Virus record (IMG/VR): IMGVR_UViG_2861452123_000001
Location: 13,139-77,138 of that record
Length of the DNA: 64,000 nucleotides
Source of the DNA: a virus
Reading direction: 5' to 3' (one strand)
This document shows positions 1 through 55,929 of this stretch, in pieces (positions within the stretch are counted from its first letter, which is position 1; every line of letters begins with the position of its first letter). Both the position numbers and the translations under genes were made by a program. The notes beneath the pieces were generated by a model. It was not told the origin of the DNA. It did no database searches and was given only the letters and a program-made list of their open reading frames with translations.

Positions 1-458
1 TACATCTGCTCGTCTTCGTCGTGCTCGATGTCCAGCCGCATCACCCCTTGCACGAACTCAGTGGCGCAGTCGTTTCCAACGTGCAGCGTGTGATACAGCG
101 GCCGGTAGCCGTCGAAGTGGCGGTCGATCTGCAGCGGCAGGGAGGGCTTGCCCCAGTTGGCAGGGGTCACCGACTTGTCGTTGACGCTGTAGCGTGGGAC
201 ACCATCGGTGTGCCAGCCGGGGATCGCGGGCCACCACCCCGGCATCAGCATCGACACCTTCGTGTCCACGAACACATGCTTGTGCTTGCCGACGATGGGC
301 GCGGACTCCAACGCCTGACGCACCACCGGCCCGCCGAACAGGACAGCGTTGTGCAGGCTGGCGCGGCGCAGGTTCGGAGTCGCCTCCAGTAACTCGTAGT
401 CCACGTTGGCCTCAGGGCCCTCAACGGCGGGGTTCGTGTTGAACCAGTAGTAGCTCAT
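1..458 (-). CDS. Putative 2OG-Fe(II) dioxygenase-like protein (runs off the window edge)
   Basis: ATG at 458 overlaps the HNH stop; open to position 1; own translation MSYYWFNTNP...PAIPGWHTDGVPR...YHTLHVG gives an HxD...H pattern. Confidence 0.5.
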   Translation of the reverse strand, partial: MSYYWFNTNPAVEGPEANVDYELLEATPNLRRASLHNAVLFGGPVVRQALESAPIVGKHKHVFVDTKVSMLMPGWWPAIPGWHTDGVPRYSVNDKSVTPANWGKPSLPLQIDRHFDGYRPLYHTLHVGNDCATEFVQGVMRLDIEHDEDEQM

Positions 459-1908: not shown

Positions 1909-3132
1909 CTACGTTCCCTTCACATTCATGACCTGGCGCAGCGTCGTGACGACTTCCACTAGGGGGTCCGCATCGGCCATCACCTGGTCGATGTCCTTGT
2001 ACGCGCCGGGGATCTCATCGATCCACTCATCGCCATGCCGGTACTCGATGCCCTCCATGGCTGCCGCGAGATCGTCAGCGGTGAACAGTTCCTTCGCCTT
2101 GGTCCGGCTGAACTTCCGACCAGCACCGTGCGGGGCAGAGAACAGTCCGGCCTCGTTGCCCTTCCCCCGCACCACGTACGACTTCGTGCCCATGGAGCCG
2201 GGGATAACACCCAGCTTCCCATCGTGGGCATCGATCGCTCCCTTGCGAGTGAGCCATACCCGTTGTCCCCCAATGGTTTCCGGTACGGTGTAGTTGTGGT
2301 GGCAGTTGATCCGGTCGATCTCGACGCGCTGTGGCTGCACACCCATCCACCAGGCGAACACCTGGACGAACCGGTCCATCATCTCGGCCCGGTTCAGGAA
2401 CGCGAACCGCTGCGCCCACTCCAGATCCTTGATGTAGCGGTCGAACTCAGGCGTGCCCTCTTCGAGGAATGCCAGATCACGGTTGGGGAGCTTGTAGTTC
2501 GCGCACTTGCAGTTCTCGATCGCGTGAGGCGCGACCTGCTTCTGGAGGCAGTACTCCGTGGCCACCTTGATGTGGCGCTGTGCGATCTTGTTGCCGACGC
2601 CACGGCTACCGCTGTGCAGGAACAGCCACACGTTGTCGTCGGCGTCCACACACAGCTCGATGAAGTGGTTACCGCCGCCGAGCGAGCCGAGCTGCTCCAT
2701 CCACTTCGGCGAGTGCGACAGATCCACGTCCAGCTTCTGCTGCAACTGGATCAGCTCTTCGTGCTTCGCCTTCGTGAACGTGAACCGCTGCAGCGTCTTG
2801 TTGTAGTTGCCGGGGCTGAGCGGGATGGCCTCCTCGACCTGGCGGCGCAACGATGCGAGGTCGAGGTGTGAGATCAGATCCCACTTGAACCGCGTGGCGA
2901 CGGCGATCATGCCGCAGCCGATGTCGACGCCGACCGCAGCAGGGATCACCGCACCCCTCGTCGGGATGACGGTGCCGACCGCAGATCCCTTGCCCGAGTG
3001 AGCATCCGGCATCAGTGCGACGTGCGGGTAGACGAACGGCATGCTCGCTGTTTCCTTCGCCTGCTCCACCGTGTTGTGGTCGATCATGCTGGCGAAGTTG
3101 ACGAGCTTCGGCGCGAGAGTTGTGGCGCTCAC
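1909..3132 (-). CDS. rtcB: RtcB RNA ligase
   Basis: MPDAHSG, GVDIGCGM, QLGSLGGGNHFIE, LHSGSRG, HHNY, RKGA, PGSMG, HGAGR, DEIPGAYK motifs. Confidence 0.97.
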   Translation of the reverse strand: MSATTLAPKLVNFASMIDHNTVEQAKETASMPFVYPHVALMPDAHSGKGSAVGTVIPTRGAVIPAAVGVDIGCGMIAVATRFKWDLISHLDLASLRRQVEEAIPLSPGNYNKTLQRFTFTKAKHEELIQLQQKLDVDLSHSPKWMEQLGSLGGGNHFIELCVDADDNVWLFLHSGSRGVGNKIAQRHIKVATEYCLQKQVAPHAIENCKCANYKLPNRDLAFLEEGTPEFDRYIKDLEWAQRFAFLNRAEMMDRFVQVFAWWMGVQPQRVEIDRINCHHNYTVPETIGGQRVWLTRKGAIDAHDGKLGVIPGSMGTKSYVVRGKGNEAGLFSAPHGAGRKFSRTKAKELFTADDLAAAMEGIEYRHGDEWIDEIPGAYKDIDQVMADADPLVEVVTTLRQVMNVKGT

Positions 3133-3500
3133 CGGACATCCCATTCCTTGGAATGCGCCTTGATGGCGTCCACGCATGCCCGCTTGCCGTCGATCAGGTA
3201 CGAGCTGACCCCCGACTGCCACTCGTAGCCCGTGAGGCCACGGATGTAGGCGATGGCGTCAGCCGTCGACAGGGGCTGCCCCCAGTCGCCGTCGGAACGG
3301 AAGTCCTCAAACGGCGACGGGCATGAACAACCGCTGTCCTCGCCGATCCGGTACGCCTTGCGCTTGGTGTCGTACAGGACGACGAGGGTGTCGAAGCTGT
3401 AGCAGGGTTCGGACTTCTCGAACTCGAAGACGAACTCCAGGTGCTCCAGGCCGTCGTGATACGACAGCCAATACGGGCGCTCGTACGTCTCGGCGCTCAC
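3129..3500 (-). CDS. Hypothetical protein (DSGCSCPSPFED family of actinophages)
   Basis: GTGA-coupled ORF; Cys motif. Confidence 0.7.
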   Translation of the reverse strand: MSAETYERPYWLSYHDGLEHLEFVFEFEKSEPCYSFDTLVVLYDTKRKAYRIGEDSGCSCPSPFEDFRSDGDWGQPLSTADAIAYIRGLTGYEWQSGVSSYLIDGKRACVDAIKAHSKEWDVR

Positions 3501-5060: not shown

Positions 5061-5129
5061 TGACGCGGATGTGCTTCATATACACCACATCTAAGATGCC
5101 AGGCTTACGAACCTGGACCTTCCGCTAAG
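5061..5129 (-). ncRNA. Circularly permuted tRNA-like RNA 1 (YrlA-like topology)
   Basis: GCGGA-AGGT-[CCAGG TTCGTAAG CCTGG]-[CATC TTA GATG]-TG-[GTGT ATATGAA GCAC]-A-TCCGC. Confidence 0.7.
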
Positions 5130-5340: not shown

Positions 5341-5415
5341 TGGTACGGTCACCGGGTACTGCCCCCAGGTTTCCGTCTTATCAGGACGGCGTCCTTACTA
5401 TTGGACGATGACCGA
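5341..5415 (-). tRNA. tRNA-Ile(GAT)
   Basis: CCGTC-CTGATAA-GACGG arm; encoded ACCA; T loop GGCAGTA. Confidence 0.85.
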
Positions 5416-6078: not shown

Positions 6079-6153
6079 TGGGGTGGTCGGCCGGTACTGA
6101 CCCGGCGTCGTCGCCGTTCACAGCGCGTGGCTCTACCTTTGAGCTACGACCAC
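6079..6153 (-). tRNA. tRNA-His(GTG)
   Basis: Loop CT-GTG-AA; C73 + CCA; weak anticodon stem; T loop GTCAGTA; T at position -1. Confidence 0.72.
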
Positions 6154-8072: not shown

Positions 8073-8173
8073 ATGGAATGACCGGCTTTTCCCCGGCATC
8101 TGCGACCGTCGACTGTCGCCGTGCTACCAAGAGCCGTCGCCACATGGCTGGTTTACCCTTGCACCACATTCCA
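8073..8173 (-). ncRNA. tRNA-like RNA with the anticodon arm replaced by a multi-hairpin insert
   Basis: Acceptor TGGAATG/CATTCCA; D-like and T-like arms; ~50-nt central domain. Confidence 0.5.
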
Positions 8174-8232
8174 AGTTTGGAGCCGGTGCTCGGCTCTTCG
8201 CCGACTAGCTAGCACGCACCGACACGTTTAAC

Positions 8233-8371
8233 GGAGCCGCTCTACCGTTGAGCCGTATACAACTGCCCGCACAAAGCCCCAACTGCTGGTACCGCGTCGG
8301 TGTAACTCTGCTCTCCCCCTGCAGAGGGAGCGGGAGGTCGCAGGGGGATTCGAACCCCCAACCACTCCTCG
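8233..8371 (-). ncRNA. Circularly permuted tRNA-like RNA 2
   Basis: GGAGT-GGTT-[GGGGG TTCGAAT CCCCC]-TGCGAC...GTTGTA-TACG-[GCTC AACGGTA GAGC]-G-GCTCC. Confidence 0.7.
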
Positions 8372-8444
8372 CTGGCCCACCAGGATTCGAACCTAGAGTC
8401 ACGCCTTAACAGGGCGTTGGTTTACCGGATTAACCGACAGGCCA
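8372..8444 (-). tRNA. tRNA-Asn(GTT)
   Basis: ACGCC-CTGTTAA-GGCGT arm; G73. Confidence 0.92.
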
Positions 8445-8848
8445 ATGGTATTGCAGTAATCACATCCGCTGCAACGCTGCCGATGTGTCCTTCCCCGATG
8501 GCAATTAGCGCACACCAGGTCGCACTTCACTGCTTCCGCTCGCATGCGGGCGAGGGAAACGATTGTGTTGCCGTCCGCTACACCGAATAGCTTCTCGGCC
8601 GGATCTCGGTGATCAAAATCCATCGCGTACGGCGGATATTCATTGCCGCAGTCGAGACACTTGCCCCCGTGCTCGGCAACCAGGGTTGCCTTGTTCTTTC
8701 GCCTAGTTCGAGCCACTGCATCAGAAGCCGATTCCTTTCGGCATACGTTGCAATGTCGGTCTTTTCGGATCACATCAACAGGACGATCACTGCGGTACTG
8801 GAACTCACTAAGTGCTTTCAATTTCCCACACTTGGGGCACGCTTTCAT
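8399..8848 (-). CDS. Free-standing HNH (homing-type) endonuclease in the tRNA operon
   Basis: CPKC...CNVC Zn motif, CLDC, MDFDHRDP, CDLVCANCH; RBS GAGGGTAGG. Confidence 0.88.
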   Translation of the reverse strand: MKACPKCGKLKALSEFQYRSDRPVDVIRKDRHCNVCRKESASDAVARTRRKNKATLVAEHGGKCLDCGNEYPPYAMDFDHRDPAEKLFGVADGNTIVSLARMRAEAVKCDLVCANCHRGRTHRQRCSGCDYCNTIGLSVNPVNQRPVKA

Positions 8849-9065: not shown

Positions 9066-9189
9066 GGCCCTGTGCTGCCTTACACCACGTCGACTCGCTC
9101 GCTGATCTGGCGGCGGCAGGCATGCGGCTGTACAGACGGCACACGATGTAAACGACGGCGGGACTTCGAAACCCGCACCAGGGCCTTTG
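9066..9189 (-). ncRNA. Circularly permuted tRNA-like RNA 3
   Basis: GGCCC-TGGT-[GCGGG TTTCGAAGT CCCGC]-CGTCG...CGACG-TG-[GTGT AAGGCA GCAC]-A-GGGCC. Confidence 0.72.
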
Positions 9190-9557
9190 TGGAGCTGCCG
9201 AGAATCGAACTCGGGTCTCATGCAGTGTTTGTCAAGCCTTCTACGTGCGTAGCGTTTGGCGACTTCTATACCGCTGCCCTCCGCGAGGCGGTTGCCGGTC
9301 TCCATTCCGGCTCTGCTCATGACTTCCGCTATTTTGCCTCTTGCGACGTGGTGCTCAATTCCTGCGAGGGTTCCCCGTATTTCGGCAGTGGATTGGCACA
9401 CGGAACGGGTGAACCGTTGTGCCCCACTGGACTAAGCCGCTGCGGCGTAGTCGGACGCGGTGAAAGCTGCGTTTATTGGGTTTGCACTGTTACGGGACGT
9501 TGCTTCCCGGCACGCTTCTCAAGACATACAAGCTCATGATCGAAACCTGTCAGCCCC
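9190..9557 (-). ncRNA. ssrA: tmRNA, tag (A)AAFTASDYAAAA
   Basis: 5' GGGGCTGACAGGTTTCGA; 3' GTTCGATTCTCGGCAGCTCCA with G3:U70; AATAAAC-GCA resume site; tag ORF 9470-9432. Confidence 0.95.
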
Positions 9558-11202: not shown

Positions 11203-11540
11203 CAGTCCCTTACGCGAACGTCGAAGCAGTTGGATGCGATGGGCTCGACGGAAACCGCGCGGCTAGCGCTGACACTCAGCACGCCGTCCTTCATGCGGAC
11301 GCCGACCTCGTCGTAGCTGTACTTCGAGGGTTCGCCGGTCGCGGAGAAGTACACGGTCTGGTACCCACGCTCGCTGGGAATGTACAGCTTGTTCTTCCAA
11401 TCGCCGTACCAGATGTGCGTCGGCTCCACGGTTTCCAAGTGTTCGGCGAGACGATGCTCCGCGGTCGCGGCGCGGTGACGCTCCCTGGCTAGCTCTTCGC
11501 GTGCCCACCGGGGCAGCTTCTCTTCACGGGGATCGCTCAC
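11202..11540 (-). CDS. Hypothetical protein (KLPRWA family of actinophages)
   Basis: GTGA-coupled ORF. Confidence 0.7.
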   Translation of the reverse strand: MSDPREEKLPRWAREELARERHRAATAEHRLAEHLETVEPTHIWYGDWKNKLYIPSERGYQTVYFSATGEPSKYSYDEVGVRMKDGVLSVSASRAVSVEPIASNCFDVRVRD

Positions 11541-12322
11541 GCTGCATCCTTTCGTATCACCAGCATGGTGTTGCGGTCGAGTGTCGTTGCGTCCATGTCC
11601 ATCCCGATGATCTGGGTTACATGCGCCGGTCCTGTGTACAGGCTGTTGTACCGGTTGTGATAGTGCCCGTGGAACAGGACGGCCGGACGGACAACGTCGA
11701 CCACCTTCTGCAGCTGCTTGCGGTTGACGGTGGACGCCTCGATCTCCGAGAGTGGCCACCCGCTACGGGCGGCGTCGAGCTTGTCGTCGGCATGGATGCC
11801 AGGAATGGCAACGCCGTATGGGCAGTCGTGGGTGACCATCACATCGACGTGACTGCCGTCTCCGATGGCACGTGCTACGTCGGCGTCGGAGATGTGTTCC
11901 CCGTCCCACCAAGACTTACCAGGGGTACGCTGCAGTCGGTCCACGGAGTGCGCACCACCGAGTGACATCCAGGTCTGGCCCCACCATTCCCAGCGGTGAC
12001 CGCGTGGCATGTGAATGATGTTGGGGTAGTTGGGGGCTGACCATGGCTGGTGATCGAAGGCGTCGACCCACTCTTCGAGGTCGTCGTGGTTCTCATGGTT
12101 GCCGTCGACCCAGTGCAGGGTGACGCCGCACTCCTGAAGGTTCTCCTGCAGGAACCGCAAGTACTTCCACGTGTCGCGGTCGAGGACACTCCACCAGCCG
12201 AAGTCGCCGACGTGAATGATGGTGTCGGCACCCGACTTGCGGGCGTGATGGATGACCTTCTGGCCCCATGCGCCGTTGCCATGCCAGTCGCCTGCGACGA
12301 GGATCTTGGTGGGTTCGTTCAT
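11537..12322 (-). CDS. Calcineurin-like metallophosphoesterase
   Basis: GDWHG, VGDFG, VDGNHENH, VTHD, FHGHYH. Confidence 0.93.
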   Translation of the reverse strand: MNEPTKILVAGDWHGNGAWGQKVIHHARKSGADTIIHVGDFGWWSVLDRDTWKYLRFLQENLQECGVTLHWVDGNHENHDDLEEWVDAFDHQPWSAPNYPNIIHMPRGHRWEWWGQTWMSLGGAHSVDRLQRTPGKSWWDGEHISDADVARAIGDGSHVDVMVTHDCPYGVAIPGIHADDKLDAARSGWPLSEIEASTVNRKQLQKVVDVVRPAVLFHGHYHNRYNSLYTGPAHVTQIIGMDMDATTLDRNTMLVIRKDAA

Positions 12323-13638: not shown

Positions 13639-13877
13639 CAGATGCTGCTCAGGATGCCGTTGGCGTGGACCGTGGTGACGTAGCCGCGATTCACCAGCAC
13701 GTTGGCGGTAGCGACGAGTAGCTCGGCCCTACCCTCGTCGGTGGTGAGATGGTCGAAGAACTGCGGCACGTGGTCGGCCGGGATACCGGCAAACAGGTAG
13801 TTCACCGTGCGGTCGTATCGGTTCACGGTCACGTCGATGGCTACTCCATCGAATGCGCTGGGGTCCACGTCGCTCAC
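13638..13877 (-). CDS. Hypothetical protein
   Basis: 79-aa coupled ORF. Confidence 0.65.
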   Translation of the reverse strand: MSDVDPSAFDGVAIDVTVNRYDRTVNYLFAGIPADHVPQFFDHLTTDEGRAELLVATANVLVNRGYVTTVHANGILSSI

Positions 13878-14116
13878 TGGGTCTCCTCGGTCTTCTTGCT
13901 ACGGGCGATGGCGGCGTTGGCCCAGAACATGGCCTGTTCCAGGTTGGTTAGGGCGAGCGCCTTCTCGCGGCCAGGCGGAATGCGGTCGTCGTAGAGCACC
14001 GCAAGTTCCAGGGTGTCGCGGCGCACCTGTGTGTGAACTGCAGCCTTGACCGGCGACGGTGCATGGTGACTGAACCGGTGCTGGATGTCCTTGTAGGATT
14101 CGTTGGTGCTGTACAT
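13874..14116 (-). CDS. Acb2/Tad1-like nucleotide-signal sponge
   Basis: RFSHHAP...GREKALALTNLEQAMFWANAAIAR. Confidence 0.75.
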   Translation of the reverse strand: MYSTNESYKDIQHRFSHHAPSPVKAAVHTQVRRDTLELAVLYDDRIPPGREKALALTNLEQAMFWANAAIARSKKTEETQ

Positions 14117-14871
14117 CAGATCCCCACTGTGGCAGTTGATTTGAAGCTGTTGCGGTCGCGTCCCCACTTGCCGCACGCCTTGCACTGGAAGCGGCGGTAC
14201 CGGTAGGTGGTGTTTCCGGCGTGTCCTCGATACTGCACGTGATCGGAGCCGCAGTTCGAGCAGCGGATGGTGTCCGAGTCCTCTTCGAACAGGCCGAGAT
14301 TCATGCCTCGTAGCCACGGACGGAGCAGATAGAACAGCTCCTCGGTCAGCTCCACGTCGCGGCGGTTGTACCGCTCCATCGCGGCGTGGGCGCGGGCCAC
14401 GGTACCGGTGTCGGTGGAACGCAGGTCTGACCACAGCCCTGGCGGCGTCTTGTCCTTGCCTTCGAGGCCGAGAACGTCTGCGATGTAGGCCATTCGGTTG
14501 TACAGGAAGTCGAACTCGCGCTTGACGTTGACCATCAGGTCGATGTCGACGTGCGGCGACGGCGGGGTCAGCCCGTGCTCCAGGAGGACGGTGCGGAGAT
14601 GCTTCACGTCGAAGCGTCGGCTGTTCCACCCCACGACGTAGTCGGCTTCATCGAGGATGGCATGGATCTTGCGCGCCATCCCCTCCTGACCGTCGAGCCA
14701 CTCGGCGGAGAACTCGATGTCCGGCTTGTCGAGCCACTTCCACGCGAGGCAGACGGTGCGAGGTGCCTCGCGGAACGCTTCGGGCCGGATGAAGTCGGGC
14801 TTGAAGTCCCATACTTCCGCCAATCCTGCGATTCGCTCAATGTCGAGTGTGACGATCTTTGCGGCGGTCAT
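14116..14871 (-). CDS. RNase H-like (DnaQ/DEDD) 3'-5' exonuclease with C-terminal Zn finger
   Basis: LDIE, GWNSRRFD, YNRRDV, CSNC...CKAC. Confidence 0.85.
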   Translation of the reverse strand: MTAAKIVTLDIERIAGLAEVWDFKPDFIRPEAFREAPRTVCLAWKWLDKPDIEFSAEWLDGQEGMARKIHAILDEADYVVGWNSRRFDVKHLRTVLLEHGLTPPSPHVDIDLMVNVKREFDFLYNRMAYIADVLGLEGKDKTPPGLWSDLRSTDTGTVARAHAAMERYNRRDVELTEELFYLLRPWLRGMNLGLFEEDSDTIRCSNCGSDHVQYRGHAGNTTYRYRRFQCKACGKWGRDRNSFKSTATVGI

Positions 14872-55404: not shown

Positions 55405-55929
55405 TTATCGGGGAAGGGTGTTCAAGACCTTGCGGTAGTTCGGCAGAGACTCCGATTCGCGGAGGCCGATCTTGAACGTGACGGGGATGAACTTTTCGTC
55501 CACTAGGCGCTCAGGGATGAGCTGCGGACCAAGCCACTCAGCGGAAGACTTGATGGAAGATGAAGTGCCGTCCGAGAGAACGACTTCCACTCCCTTGCAG
55601 ACCGGCTCCTCCAACATGCGTCGGATGAACTCGATCAACTCCCACGACTCCTTGCGAGTCGGTGTGATGGCCGCGATCTGGACGAGAGCGAAGTCGATGC
55701 GAGTGTCTTCGTCGCTCTTTCCTGGCTGACGCCAAACCCGCAGAGTCGGCTGCGTACCTCCGACCGGCTGGCCGGGACTCAGCACGTAATGGCCCTCAGG
55801 GAGCCACGTGCAAACGAAGACCTTGTCTCCGAGGAGCCACCGAAAGTACTGGCAAACCAGATCTTCGGCGTCTGTGTATCCGCCCTCGTACCAATCAGGC
55901 AGTTCCAACATCGGAATGGGATCGGTCAT
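55405..55929 (-). CDS. Tail terminator protein
   Basis: Synteny; LPDWYEGGYTDAE. Confidence 0.8.
   Translation of the reverse strand: MTDPIPMLELPDWYEGGYTDAEDLVCQYFRWLLGDKVFVCTWLPEGHYVLSPGQPVGGTQPTLRVWRQPGKSDEDTRIDFALVQIAAITPTRKESWELIEFIRRMLEEPVCKGVEVVLSDGTSSSIKSSAEWLGPQLIPERLVDEKFIPVTFKIGLRESESLPNYRKVLNTLPR

What the first reader, a model, noticed from the sequence alone, without database searches (positions are those of the whole stretch)
8233..8371. Permuted tRNA mimic downstream of tRNA-Asn, with an extended acceptor domain
CGA, GGAGT, GGTT, perfect T arm GGGGG-TTCGAAT-CCCCC, acceptor TGCGAC/GTTGTA continued by CCCGC/GCGGG and further hairpins, then the textbook D arm GCTC-AACGGTA-GAGC, G, GCTCC (pairs with GGAGT). 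A tRNA scanner would see only orphan halves in reversed order. The connector is 4 nt rather than 2.
Basis: partly seen in the sequence, partly recalled or inferred. Interest (0 to 1): 0.8.

Follow-up and report, generated by a model that had tools for sequence, protein, structure and literature searches.

The report
Back-to-front tRNA look-alike in phage
Right after a phage tRNA-Asn gene lies a 136-base RNA gene built like a tRNA with its halves swapped, no anticodon loop and a branched cap on its acceptor end; related mycobacteriophages carry the same design, which resembles the tRNA-like part of bacterial Y RNAs but lacks their Ro60 partner.

Summary
On the minus strand, 8368-8233 reads: anticodon-stem 3' strand, 4-nt variable loop, perfect T arm, acceptor 3' strand, 71-nt insert, acceptor 5' strand, UACG, canonical D arm, G, anticodon-stem 5' strand. 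tRNA scanners call nothing there.

It is more than chance. A strict descriptor hits twice in the whole 8.6-Mb assembly, but at least 8 times in about 270 kb of related phage tRNA arrays.

The window is a cluster-M-like mycobacteriophage carrying a tRNA array, tmRNA and RtcB. Twelve modules from relatives keep all four helices: 241 of 252 own pairs against 163 with shuffled partners, and 17 of 21 pairs show two-sided changes. The 15:48 tertiary pair covaries. The closest homologue (L019, a Mycolicibacterium palauense prophage) shares the UACG connector and a Y-shaped cap with a UGCA-loop hairpin.

The closest known thing is the tRNA-like domain of YrlA Y RNAs. This element has no closing Ro60-binding helix, and neither the phage, its relatives nor the host assembly has a Ro60 (TROVE) gene. 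I read it as a Ro60-independent, anticodon-less tRNA mimic co-transcribed with the array. Its function is inferred, not shown.

This scan had already noted the family on this same window (5061-5129 and 9066-9189).

The parts
8372..8444 (-). tRNA-Asn(GUU), the gene directly upstream. Its discriminator G8372 lies 3 nt before the module.
   Evidence: ARAGORN; Rfam tRNA 52.4 bits.
8369..8371 (-). 3-nt spacer CGA, sitting where a CCA would be. It leaves no room for a 5' closing strand.
   Evidence: Sequence. Relatives have CGA, CGUA or CAUU in the same place.
8364..8368 (-). Anticodon-stem 3' strand GGAGU (tRNA positions 39-43).
   Evidence: Pairs 5/5 with 8233-8237. It pairs only 2-3/5 with the partner strands of other modules.
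8360..8363 (-). Variable loop GGUU. Its last U is position 48 of the 15:48 Levitt pair.
   Evidence: A15:U48 here. Across 12 modules the pair is A:U x5, G:C x5, G:U x1, G:G x1.
8343..8359 (-). T arm GGGGG-UUCGAAU-CCCCC.
   Evidence: It belongs to no predicted tRNA.
8336..8342 (-). Acceptor 3' strand UGCGACC.
   Evidence: 6/7 pairs with 8258-8264.
8265..8335 (-). 71-nt insert capping the acceptor helix. After a 2x2 internal loop comes an extension helix (CCCGC 8330-8334 with GCGGG 8266-8270), then a three-way junction.
   Evidence: MFE fold of 8258-8342 (z -1.8). L019 folds to the same shape.
8314..8329 (-). Cap hairpin 1: UCCCUC-UGCA-GGGGGA, a 6-bp stem with a UGCA loop.
   Evidence: L019 has CUGCCG-UGCA-CGGUGG. 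The post-tmRNA modules carry CUGCAG, GUGCAC or CUGUACAG in the same hairpin loop.
8271..8311 (-). Cap hairpin 2, a long imperfect hairpin.
   Evidence: MFE prediction only. L019 has a counterpart of similar size.
8258..8264 (-). Acceptor 5' strand AGUUGUA.
8254..8257 (-). Connector UACG: U8 and A9 plus two extra bases.
   Evidence: The identical UACG occurs in L019. The other modules have UA or UG.
8239..8253 (-). D arm GCUC-AACGGUA-GAGC, with A14, A15 and G18G19.
8238..8238 (-). G at tRNA position 26.
8233..8237 (-). Anticodon-stem 5' strand GCUCC. The module ends here, with no anticodon loop.
8226..8232 (-). 3' flank GUUAAAC, an A/U-rich single-stranded motif shared by the family.
   Evidence: GUUAA(A/C/G) or UGU(U)AAAC follows most modules. 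The Ro60-linked Bxz1 RNA has G-CUUAAAC after its D arm.

Best explanation
Positions 8368-8233 (minus strand) encode a small structured RNA with the complete body of a tRNA in circularly permuted order. It begins with the 3' strand of the anticodon stem and runs through the variable loop, T arm and acceptor 3' strand. A 71-nt Y-shaped cap takes the place of free acceptor ends. It then continues through the acceptor 5' strand and D arm and ends with the 5' strand of the anticodon stem. There is no anticodon loop, so it cannot decode.

It is one member of a conserved set of 1-3 such modules in the tRNA arrays of cluster-M-type mycobacteriophages. The design matches the tRNA-like domain of YrlA Y RNAs, but without the Ro60-binding helix and without any Ro60 gene.

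Inferred mechanism:
- It is transcribed as part of the polycistronic array.
- Its 5' end is made by 3' processing of tRNA-Asn, 3 nt upstream.
- It folds into a tRNA-like L-shape through the D-loop/T-loop, U8:A14 and 15:48 contacts.
- It is then handled or bound by proteins that recognise the tRNA body: RNase P, RNase Z, modification enzymes, the CCA-adding enzyme, or host tRNA-targeting factors.
- It would act as a non-decoding tRNA mimic (decoy or scaffold) within the phage's tRNA-supply and repair programme, which includes the tRNA set, tmRNA and RtcB.

Shown here: the architecture, its conservation and covariation, its synteny, and the absence of Ro60. Inferred: transcription, processing, 3D fold and role.
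For: - Architecture read directly from the sequence.
- The strict descriptor gives 2 hits in 8.6 Mb, against at least 8 in related arrays and about 0.25 per 660 kb of random sequence.
- Twelve modules: 241/252 own pairs against 163 +/- 8 with shuffled partners (0 of 5000 shuffles reach the observed value); 17 of 21 pairs have two-sided changes.
- Tool count on the five short modules: 94% of cells paired against 81% shuffled and 33-44% with slid partners; 9 pairs with compensatory changes, 0 of 500 shuffles reaching that.
- The Levitt pair, which the descriptor did not use, covaries A:U / G:C.
- All 12 modules become ARAGORN tRNAs when un-permuted.
- Synteny: short-capped modules sit 3-4 nt after tRNA-Asn in L014-L017; others abut the tmRNA 3' end.
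- L019/L030 shares the UACG connector, the GGUU variable loop and the Y-shaped UGCA cap, with different acceptor and anticodon-stem sequences.
- The Rfam YrlA model matches the tRNA-like domain of the L017 post-Asn module (43.6 bits, E 5e-8, model positions 23-85), and weakly matches this element (17.4 bits).
- My cluster-M model finds the Ro60-adjacent Bxz1 RNA (40.5 bits).
- No TROVE domain in the host assembly or in 5 cluster-M phages. The Bxz1 control is positive, with its RNA about 250 nt upstream of the Ro60 gene.
- RtcB lies downstream of the array.
- No promoter- or terminator-like site on the minus strand around the element.
Against: - There is no expression or processing data.
- The MFE fold of the whole region prefers other pairings, and the cap fold is only marginally better than shuffles (z -1.8).
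- The family members were found with a descriptor that demands pairing, so the pairing percentages are partly ascertained.
- Only one close homologue of this particular long-capped, UACG subtype was found. It sits at another place in its array.
- PegLeg and Bongo lack a post-Asn module, so it is dispensable at that site.
- Covariance-model scores cannot separate such modules from junctions of tandem tRNAs.
- Similarity to YrlA may be convergence, since any permuted tRNA matches that model.
Confidence: 0.7

Rival explanations
1. It is mainly a cis-acting processing or stability element. A tRNA-shaped trailer placed directly after tRNA-Asn (and after tmRNA in sister modules) would recruit RNase P or RNase Z, or block exonucleases. 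This would fix the 3' end of the upstream RNA or separate it from downstream RNAs. It would have no role of its own in trans.
For: Modules start 1-4 nt after the discriminator or CCA of the upstream tRNA or tmRNA in every case. An A/U-rich GUUAAAC tract follows them. The surrounding DNA has no promoters or terminators.
Against: Most tRNAs in the same arrays mature without such a trailer. RNase P would cut inside the module, not at the upstream tRNA's end. Conservation of the D arm, the 15:48 pair and an elaborate cap goes beyond what a processing signal needs.
Confidence: 0.15
2. It is debris: the 3' half and the 5' half of decayed tRNA genes, for example a tandem duplication trimmed by deletions, with no function in this phage. 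The 71-nt insert would then be leftover spacer.
For: The D arm, variable loop and T arm resemble ordinary tRNA-Lys(CUU)-type genes found in metagenomes. Arrays of this phage group gain and lose tRNAs and modules. The whole-region fold energy is unremarkable.
Against: The two halves cross-pair in both helices (6/7 and 5/5) at fixed registers. The same order recurs in relatives with compensatory changes and at syntenic sites. L019 keeps the cap shape and the UGCA hairpin despite sequence divergence. Neither half resembles any of the window's own tRNAs beyond the generic T loop.
Confidence: 0.08
3. It is a permuted tRNA gene in the strict sense. The transcript would be circularised or its ends joined, for example by the phage RtcB ligase, to create an anticodon loop. 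The cap would then be removed by RNase P and 3' trimming to give a decoding tRNA.
For: The order of the halves matches permuted tRNA genes. RtcB, the archaeal and metazoan tRNA-splicing ligase, is encoded about 5 kb downstream. In three modules the flanks (GUUA and CGA) could give a 7-nt loop GUUACGA with U33 and a purine at position 37.
Against: Other family members have flanks that would give C33, a pyrimidine at 37, or the wrong loop length. No bulge-helix-bulge motif or flanking ribozyme is seen, and RNase Z and RNase P leave ends that RtcB cannot join (established enzymology). The array already carries 17 isotypes by ARAGORN plus two further Rfam tRNA matches, at the places where relatives hold Ile and His.
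Confidence: 0.05
4. It is a genuine Ro60-binding Y RNA (YrlA) that uses a host Ro60.
For: Weak full-length alignment to Rfam YrlA (17.4 bits, E 1). AGCGAG at the 5' edge loosely resembles the GNCGAA motif; Bxz1 has GCCGAG. M. smegmatis, the host of the cluster-M isolates, has Ro60 and YrlA (PMC4201824).
Against: The would-be 5' strand is the acceptor end of tRNA-Asn. There is no long closing helix like that of Bxz1. No TROVE gene is found in this 100%-complete host assembly or in 5 cluster-M phages.
Confidence: 0.03

Closest known systems
YrlA (Y RNA-like A; Rfam RF02553) of Salmonella, M. smegmatis and cluster C mycobacteriophages such as ET08 and Bxz1 (Chen et al. 2014, PMC4201824)
   Same: A tRNA-like domain in the same permuted order: variable loop, T arm, capped acceptor helix, U8-N9, D arm. 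It shows the same 15:48 A:U / G:C covariation that paper reports. The cap can hold an insert: Bxz1 has a 17-nt hairpin. A UUAAAC tract follows the D arm or closing strand. The models cross-recognise each other.
   Different: There is no closing helix made by the 5' and 3' ends and no proper GNCGAA Ro60 site. The 5' end abuts a tRNA. No Ro60 gene is present in the phage or host assembly. There are 2-3 copies per phage, inside a tRNA array. This copy has a 71-nt three-way-junction cap and a 4-nt connector. It scores far below the Rfam threshold, though Bxz1's RNA does too.
Circularly permuted tRNA genes of Cyanidioschyzon merolae and some archaea (from my own knowledge of the literature)
   Same: The 3' half is encoded upstream of the 5' half, and the acceptor strands are joined by an intervening sequence.
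   Different: Those genes keep a full anticodon loop after circularisation at a bulge-helix-bulge site and yield decoding tRNAs. Here the break removes the anticodon loop and the flanks do not restore it consistently. No splicing endonuclease is known in phages.
Two-piece (permuted) tmRNA genes (Rfam RF04321)
   Same: A permuted tRNA-like domain whose acceptor strands are separated by an intervening segment that is removed or tolerated.
   Different: There is no tag reading frame or pseudoknots, and no RF04321 match at this site. The D arm and anticodon stem are canonical. The phage already has a one-piece tmRNA at 9187-9557.
tRNA-like processing modules such as mascRNA at the MALAT1 3' end (from my own knowledge)
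   Same: A tRNA-shaped element inside a longer transcript that is likely recognised by RNase P and RNase Z.
   Different: mascRNA has normal strand order and a free acceptor end after processing. It is eukaryotic and unrelated in sequence.

Membership tests
YrlA / bacterial Y RNA (RF02553) | tRNA-like domain: T arm, capped acceptor helix and D arm in permuted order, with tRNA tertiary-pair nucleotides | tested here: met
   Rfam aligns the T arm, acceptor and D arm to model positions 23-85.
YrlA / bacterial Y RNA (RF02553) | Score at or above the Rfam gathering threshold (69 bits) | tested here: not met
   17.4 bits, E 1. Caveat: the Ro60-adjacent Bxz1 RNA also reaches only 32.5 bits.
YrlA / bacterial Y RNA (RF02553) | Closing helix formed by the RNA's 5' and 3' ends, carrying the Ro60-binding motif GNCGAAN0-1G | tested here: not met
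   Only CGA separates the module from tRNA-Asn. AGCGAG is a 2-mismatch look-alike lying in the tRNA's acceptor end. There is no counterpart of Bxz1's 10-bp closing helix.
YrlA / bacterial Y RNA (RF02553) | Encoded within about 4 kb of a Ro60 (TROVE) gene on the same strand | tested here: not met
   No TROVE match in the whole host assembly or in 5 cluster-M phage genomes. The positive control Bxz1 has one.
YrlA / bacterial Y RNA (RF02553) | Binds Ro60 in vivo | not testable with these tools
   Needs immunoprecipitation.
Canonical tRNA | Contiguous cloverleaf with a 7-nt anticodon loop and free acceptor ends | tested here: not met
   No call by ARAGORN or the Rfam tRNA model. It becomes a tRNA only after in-silico un-permutation with an added loop.
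Circularly permuted tRNA gene | 3' half upstream of the 5' half, with acceptor strands linked by an intervening sequence | tested here: met
Circularly permuted tRNA gene | The termini rebuild a complete anticodon loop (or other loop) on joining, at a recognisable processing motif | tested here: not met
   The flanks give GUUACGA in 3 modules, but non-canonical or wrong-length loops in the others. No bulge-helix-bulge motif is seen.
Permuted tmRNA (RF04321) | Tag reading frame and pseudoknots; match to the family model | tested here: not met
   No RF04321 or RF00023 match overlapping 8233-8371 at E up to 10.
Anticodon-less tRNA-mimic modules of cluster-M-type phage tRNA arrays (provisional family of this scan) | Four cross-pairing helices in permuted order, starting 1-4 nt after an upstream tRNA or tmRNA, with covariation among members | tested here: met

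The most novel reading that the evidence does not exclude
Cluster-M-type mycobacteriophages deploy a dedicated class of anticodon-less tRNA mimics, 2-3 per genome, some with Y-shaped caps bearing palindromic UGCA loops. These would work independently of Ro60. They could act as decoys or sponges for host tRNA-targeting immunity or toxins, or as partners of the phage RtcB, tmRNA and tRNA-replacement programme. If so, the tRNA-like domain of Y RNAs would be an autonomous functional module that phages have co-opted.
Probability: 0.25. Interest if true: 0.85.

Novelty: new variant of a known kind. Interest (0 to 1): 0.6.

Why it matters
The role of the tRNA-like domain of bacterial Y RNAs has been an open question since 2014. 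The original survey searched only genomes that encode Ro60 (PMC4201824). Finding the same domain conserved with covariation, stripped of its Ro60 handle, in phages and a host assembly without Ro60, argues that the domain has a function of its own. Cluster-M phages of M. smegmatis offer a tractable system to test this.

It also bears on why phages carry near-complete tRNA sets together with tmRNA and RtcB. Non-decoding tRNA look-alikes interleaved with the real tRNAs would fit a contest over tRNA-targeting defences.

In practice, these modules are unannotated or mis-annotated. One example is a dubious second tRNA-Asn in PegLeg. They also confuse covariance-model searches.

Tried and rejected
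- Whole-region MFE folding does not give the cloverleaf (z -1.0). This is not informative for tRNA-like folds.
- blastn of 8150-8450 against 50,697 phage records found only the tRNA-Asn.
- A DNA search of 60 relatives of the host found nothing.
- Gapped pattern scans of viral contigs returned nothing, although L019 does hold the second pattern. Those blanks are therefore uninformative.
- The ungapped 26-nt pattern mostly retrieved ordinary or degenerate tRNA-Lys-like genes in low-GC phage contigs. These are not further permuted modules.
- My covariance model R1 and Rfam YrlA both score junctions of tandem tRNAs as high as 36-45 bits. I therefore did not use model scores as evidence for this element (27.4 bits).
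- MAFFT alignments that mix long and short caps (A2, A3) were out of register. I counted pairs from descriptor registers instead.
- I tested the idea that the 5' spacer and 3' flank rebuild an anticodon loop and dropped it.
- I examined the idea that the 5' flank provides a Ro60 site and dropped it.
- Sequencing runs: none was listed, and no RNA holder was listed.
- Neighbouring ORFs gave no further RNA-repair functions beyond RtcB and a metallophosphoesterase.
- The cluster M paper of Pope et al. 2014 is not held, and the supplements of Chen et al. 2014 are not held. I could not check whether either lists these elements.
- Full-text searches for YrlA, Y RNA, tRNA-like or permuted tRNA combined with phage terms found no description of them.

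Full report
**What is there.** On the minus strand, tRNA-Asn(GUU) ends at G8372. After three bases (CGA) the sequence reads as follows:
- GGAGU (8368-8364)
- GGUU (8363-8360)
- a perfect T arm GGGGG-UUCGAAU-CCCCC (8359-8343)
- UGCGACC (8342-8336)
- a 71-nt insert (8335-8265)
- AGUUGUA (8264-8258)
- UACG (8257-8254)
- a canonical D arm GCUC-AACGGUA-GAGC (8253-8239)
- G (8238)
- GCUCC (8237-8233), followed by GUUAAAC

UGCGAC pairs with GUUGUA, and GGAGU pairs with GCUCC. ARAGORN and the Rfam tRNA model call nothing here.

**Is it more than chance?** I wrote a descriptor that requires a 5-bp T arm with a T-loop consensus, a 4-bp D arm with a GG loop, at least 6/7 acceptor pairs and 5/5 anticodon-stem pairs, all in permuted order.
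- It hits this site and one dubious site in the whole 8.6-Mb assembly, both strands.
- It hits about 0.25 times per 660 kb of resampled sequence.
- It hits at least 8 sites in about 270 kb of related phage DNA.

Thermodynamics alone is not persuasive. The whole-region MFE fold prefers other pairings (z -1.0).

**Context.** The window is a phage of the cluster M type.
- Its portal protein is 77% identical to that of PegLeg and Bongo.
- It carries an array of 17 ARAGORN tRNAs (two more by Rfam) and a tmRNA on the minus strand.
- An RtcB ligase gene lies downstream at 1909-3222.
- It sits in contig C19 of an 8.6-Mb assembly rated 100% complete; its RtcB-anchored relatives lie in Mycobacterium and Mycolicibacterium genomes.
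- The element is absent from 60 related genomes.

**Relatives.** I used RtcB as an anchor to fetch 13 viral loci and 10 genome loci. I also fetched PegLeg and Nanosmite. Arrays of this phage group carry the same permuted design at fixed places:
- Short-capped modules of 70-74 nt, with a 6-9 nt loop, lie 3-4 nt after tRNA-Asn in L014, L015, L016 and L017.
- Modules abut the tmRNA 3' end in L011, L012, L013, L015 and L017 (56-58 nt cap) and in L018, L020 and L021 (short cap).
- A long-capped module lies in L019/L030, a Mycolicibacterium palauense prophage.

PegLeg goes straight from tRNA-Asn into a conserved downstream block, without a module. The post-Asn module therefore behaves as a discrete cassette.

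**Covariation.** I took twelve distinct modules in descriptor register.
- They form 241 of 252 possible pairs with their own partner strands. With partners shuffled among modules the figure is 163 +/- 8, and 0 of 5000 shuffles reach the observed value.
- 17 of 21 pairs show changes on both sides.
- The window's GGAGU pairs 5/5 with its own GCUCC, but only 2-3/5 with the others' strands.
- The tool count on the MAFFT alignment of the five short modules gives 94% paired cells, against 81% shuffled and 33-44% slid. Nine pairs have compensatory changes, and 0 of 500 shuffles reach that.

The descriptor selected for pairing, so these percentages are partly ascertained. The Levitt tertiary pair was not part of the descriptor, and it covaries: A15:U48 five times (including this element), G15:C48 five times, with one G:U and one G:G. 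U8, A14, G18G19 and the UUCRA T loop are invariant. Joined in normal order with a generic loop, all twelve modules are accepted as tRNAs by ARAGORN.

**This copy in particular.** It sits at the post-Asn position, but it is most like the L019 module.
- Both have a GGUU variable loop, the same UACG connector and a long cap.
- The acceptor (UGCGAC/GUUGUA here, UGCCCU/GGGGUA in L019) and the anticodon stem (GGAGU/GCUCC here, CUGGU/ACCGG in L019) differ on both strands.
- Both acceptor domains fold into the same Y shape: an extension helix, a 6-bp hairpin closed by a UGCA loop, and a longer second hairpin.
- The post-tmRNA modules carry CUGCAG, GUGCAC or, in this window's own copy, CUGUACAG in the equivalent hairpin loop. 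This is a recurring palindrome that I cannot explain.

Its D arm, variable loop and T arm resemble tRNA-Lys(CUU)-type genes in metagenomes. They do not resemble any tRNA of this phage. It is therefore not a recent local duplicate.

**Comparison with what is known.** The Rfam YrlA model aligns this element weakly (17.4 bits, E 1). It aligns the L017 post-Asn module well over its tRNA-like domain only (43.6 bits, E 5e-8, model positions 23-85).

Chen et al. 2014 (PMC4201824) described YrlA as a Ro60-bound Y RNA with a tRNA-like domain. The domain has exactly this order and shows 15:48 covariation. It was found in 254 bacteria and 22 phages, but they searched only genomes that encode a TROVE protein.

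As a control I looked at Bxz1, a cluster C phage.
- It has a TROVE gene at 130.3-131.3 kb.
- About 250 nt upstream lies a permuted tRNA-like domain with a 17-nt cap hairpin and a 10-bp closing helix.
- Rfam gives that domain only 32.5 bits, so the 69-bit threshold is a poor discriminator for phage members.
- My cluster-M model gives it 40.5 bits.

The window's element differs from YrlA in the defining Y RNA features.
- It has no 5' strand for a closing helix, because the 5' side is tRNA-Asn.
- It has no proper GNCGAA motif.
- There is no TROVE gene in the host assembly or in five cluster-M phages.

So it works like, and may descend from, the YrlA tRNA-like domain, but it fails the membership tests for a Y RNA.

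**Other readings.**
- A strictly permuted tRNA gene, closed by RtcB, is attractive. However, the flanks rebuild a plausible 7-nt loop in only three modules, and the array's isotype set is already near complete.
- Permuted tmRNA is excluded.
- Decayed halves are hard to reconcile with the conserved cross-pairing.
- A purely cis-acting processing role remains possible.

**Verdict.** This is a conserved, unannotated, anticodon-less tRNA mimic: a Ro60-independent variant of the YrlA tRNA-like domain, and an unusually elaborate long-capped member of a family in cluster-M-type phage tRNA arrays. Earlier notes of this scan had already flagged sister modules in this same window at 5061-5129 and 9066-9189. 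I read both sequences, and they fit the family. Expression, processing and function remain untested.

Noticed in passing
window 9066-9185 (-): A sister module directly after the tmRNA. It reads GGCCC, UGGU, a T arm with a 9-nt loop, CGUCG ... CGACG around a cap of about 60 nt that contains the palindrome CUGUACAG, then UG, a D arm GUGU-AAGGCA-GCAC, A and GGGCC. It corresponds to the post-tmRNA modules of PegLeg, Nanosmite, L015 and L017. My strict descriptor missed it because of the 9-nt T loop.
   Followed up: partly
window 5061-5129 (-): A 69-nt minimal module between tRNA-Val and tRNA-Thr, flagged by earlier notes. The sequence fits the family: GCGGA ... UCCGC closing strands and a GUGU ... 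GCAC D arm.
   Followed up: partly
L019 4187-4615; L017 5361-5423: A full GOLLD RNA (162 bits, above the gathering score of 150) lies in the tRNA array of the M. palauense prophage, with a tRNA-Ser embedded in it. L017 has a GOLLD 5' hairpin match just before a tRNA-Ser. In L014-L017 the post-Asn module is followed by a conserved structured stretch of about 400 nt leading to that hairpin. The window has no GOLLD match.
   Followed up: partly
L012 1429-1500 (PegLeg record 55514-55585): PegLeg's record annotates a second tRNA-Asn (gp93) here. ARAGORN finds no tRNA. The sequence is the start of the conserved block UUUGGGGCAUGGCCCAUAAG..., shared by cluster-M phages. The annotation looks wrong.
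   Followed up: partly
window 8179-8184 (-): A second GGCUCC followed by AAAC lies 55 nt downstream of the module's closing strand GGCUCC-GUUAAAC. A strong hairpin region (8185-8225) lies between them. This could be an alternative closing strand or the footprint of an insertion.
   Followed up: no
cap hairpin loops: window 8320-8325, window about 9127-9134, L012, L015, L017, L019: The first cap hairpin of every long-capped module presents a self-complementary hexamer or octamer: CUGCAG, GUGCAC or CUGUACAG. The change from C...G to G...C keeps the palindrome. It may simply be a closing pair around a UGCA tetraloop, or it may be a kissing-loop dimerisation site.
   Followed up: no
window 9186-9190 (-): The tmRNA's 3' end reads CUCCA-CAA, where relatives encode CUCCA-CCA. 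L021 has CGA. The tRNA-Asn is likewise followed by CGA. The 3' ends must be trimmed and rebuilt by the CCA-adding enzyme.
   Followed up: no
L045 about 208-354 (-); L047 about 11480-11600: A low-GC phage contig carries, in normal tRNA order, a degenerate tRNA-like gene. Its anticodon-stem 3' strand, variable loop and T arm are almost identical to those of the L019 module, and its D arm is nearly the same. It has G at position 33 and is not called by ARAGORN. This hints that permuted and unpermuted versions share recent ancestry.
   Followed up: no
window 13874-14629 (-): An ORF with an Acb2/Tad1 hairpin domain (Pfam PF24729, E 1e-18), the fold of phage sponges for cyclic-nucleotide immune signals.
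   Followed up: no
window 5344-5415 and 6082-6153 (-): Two tRNAs found by Rfam (41.8 and 39.4 bits) but not by ARAGORN. By synteny with relatives they are probably Ile and His.
   Followed up: no
G000 contigs C6 7.7-10.7 kb and C4 70.4-70.7 kb: The host assembly holds further dense tRNA arrays elsewhere. Junctions of their tandem tRNAs score 36-45 bits with the YrlA-type models. This is a systematic false-positive class for such searches.
   Followed up: yes
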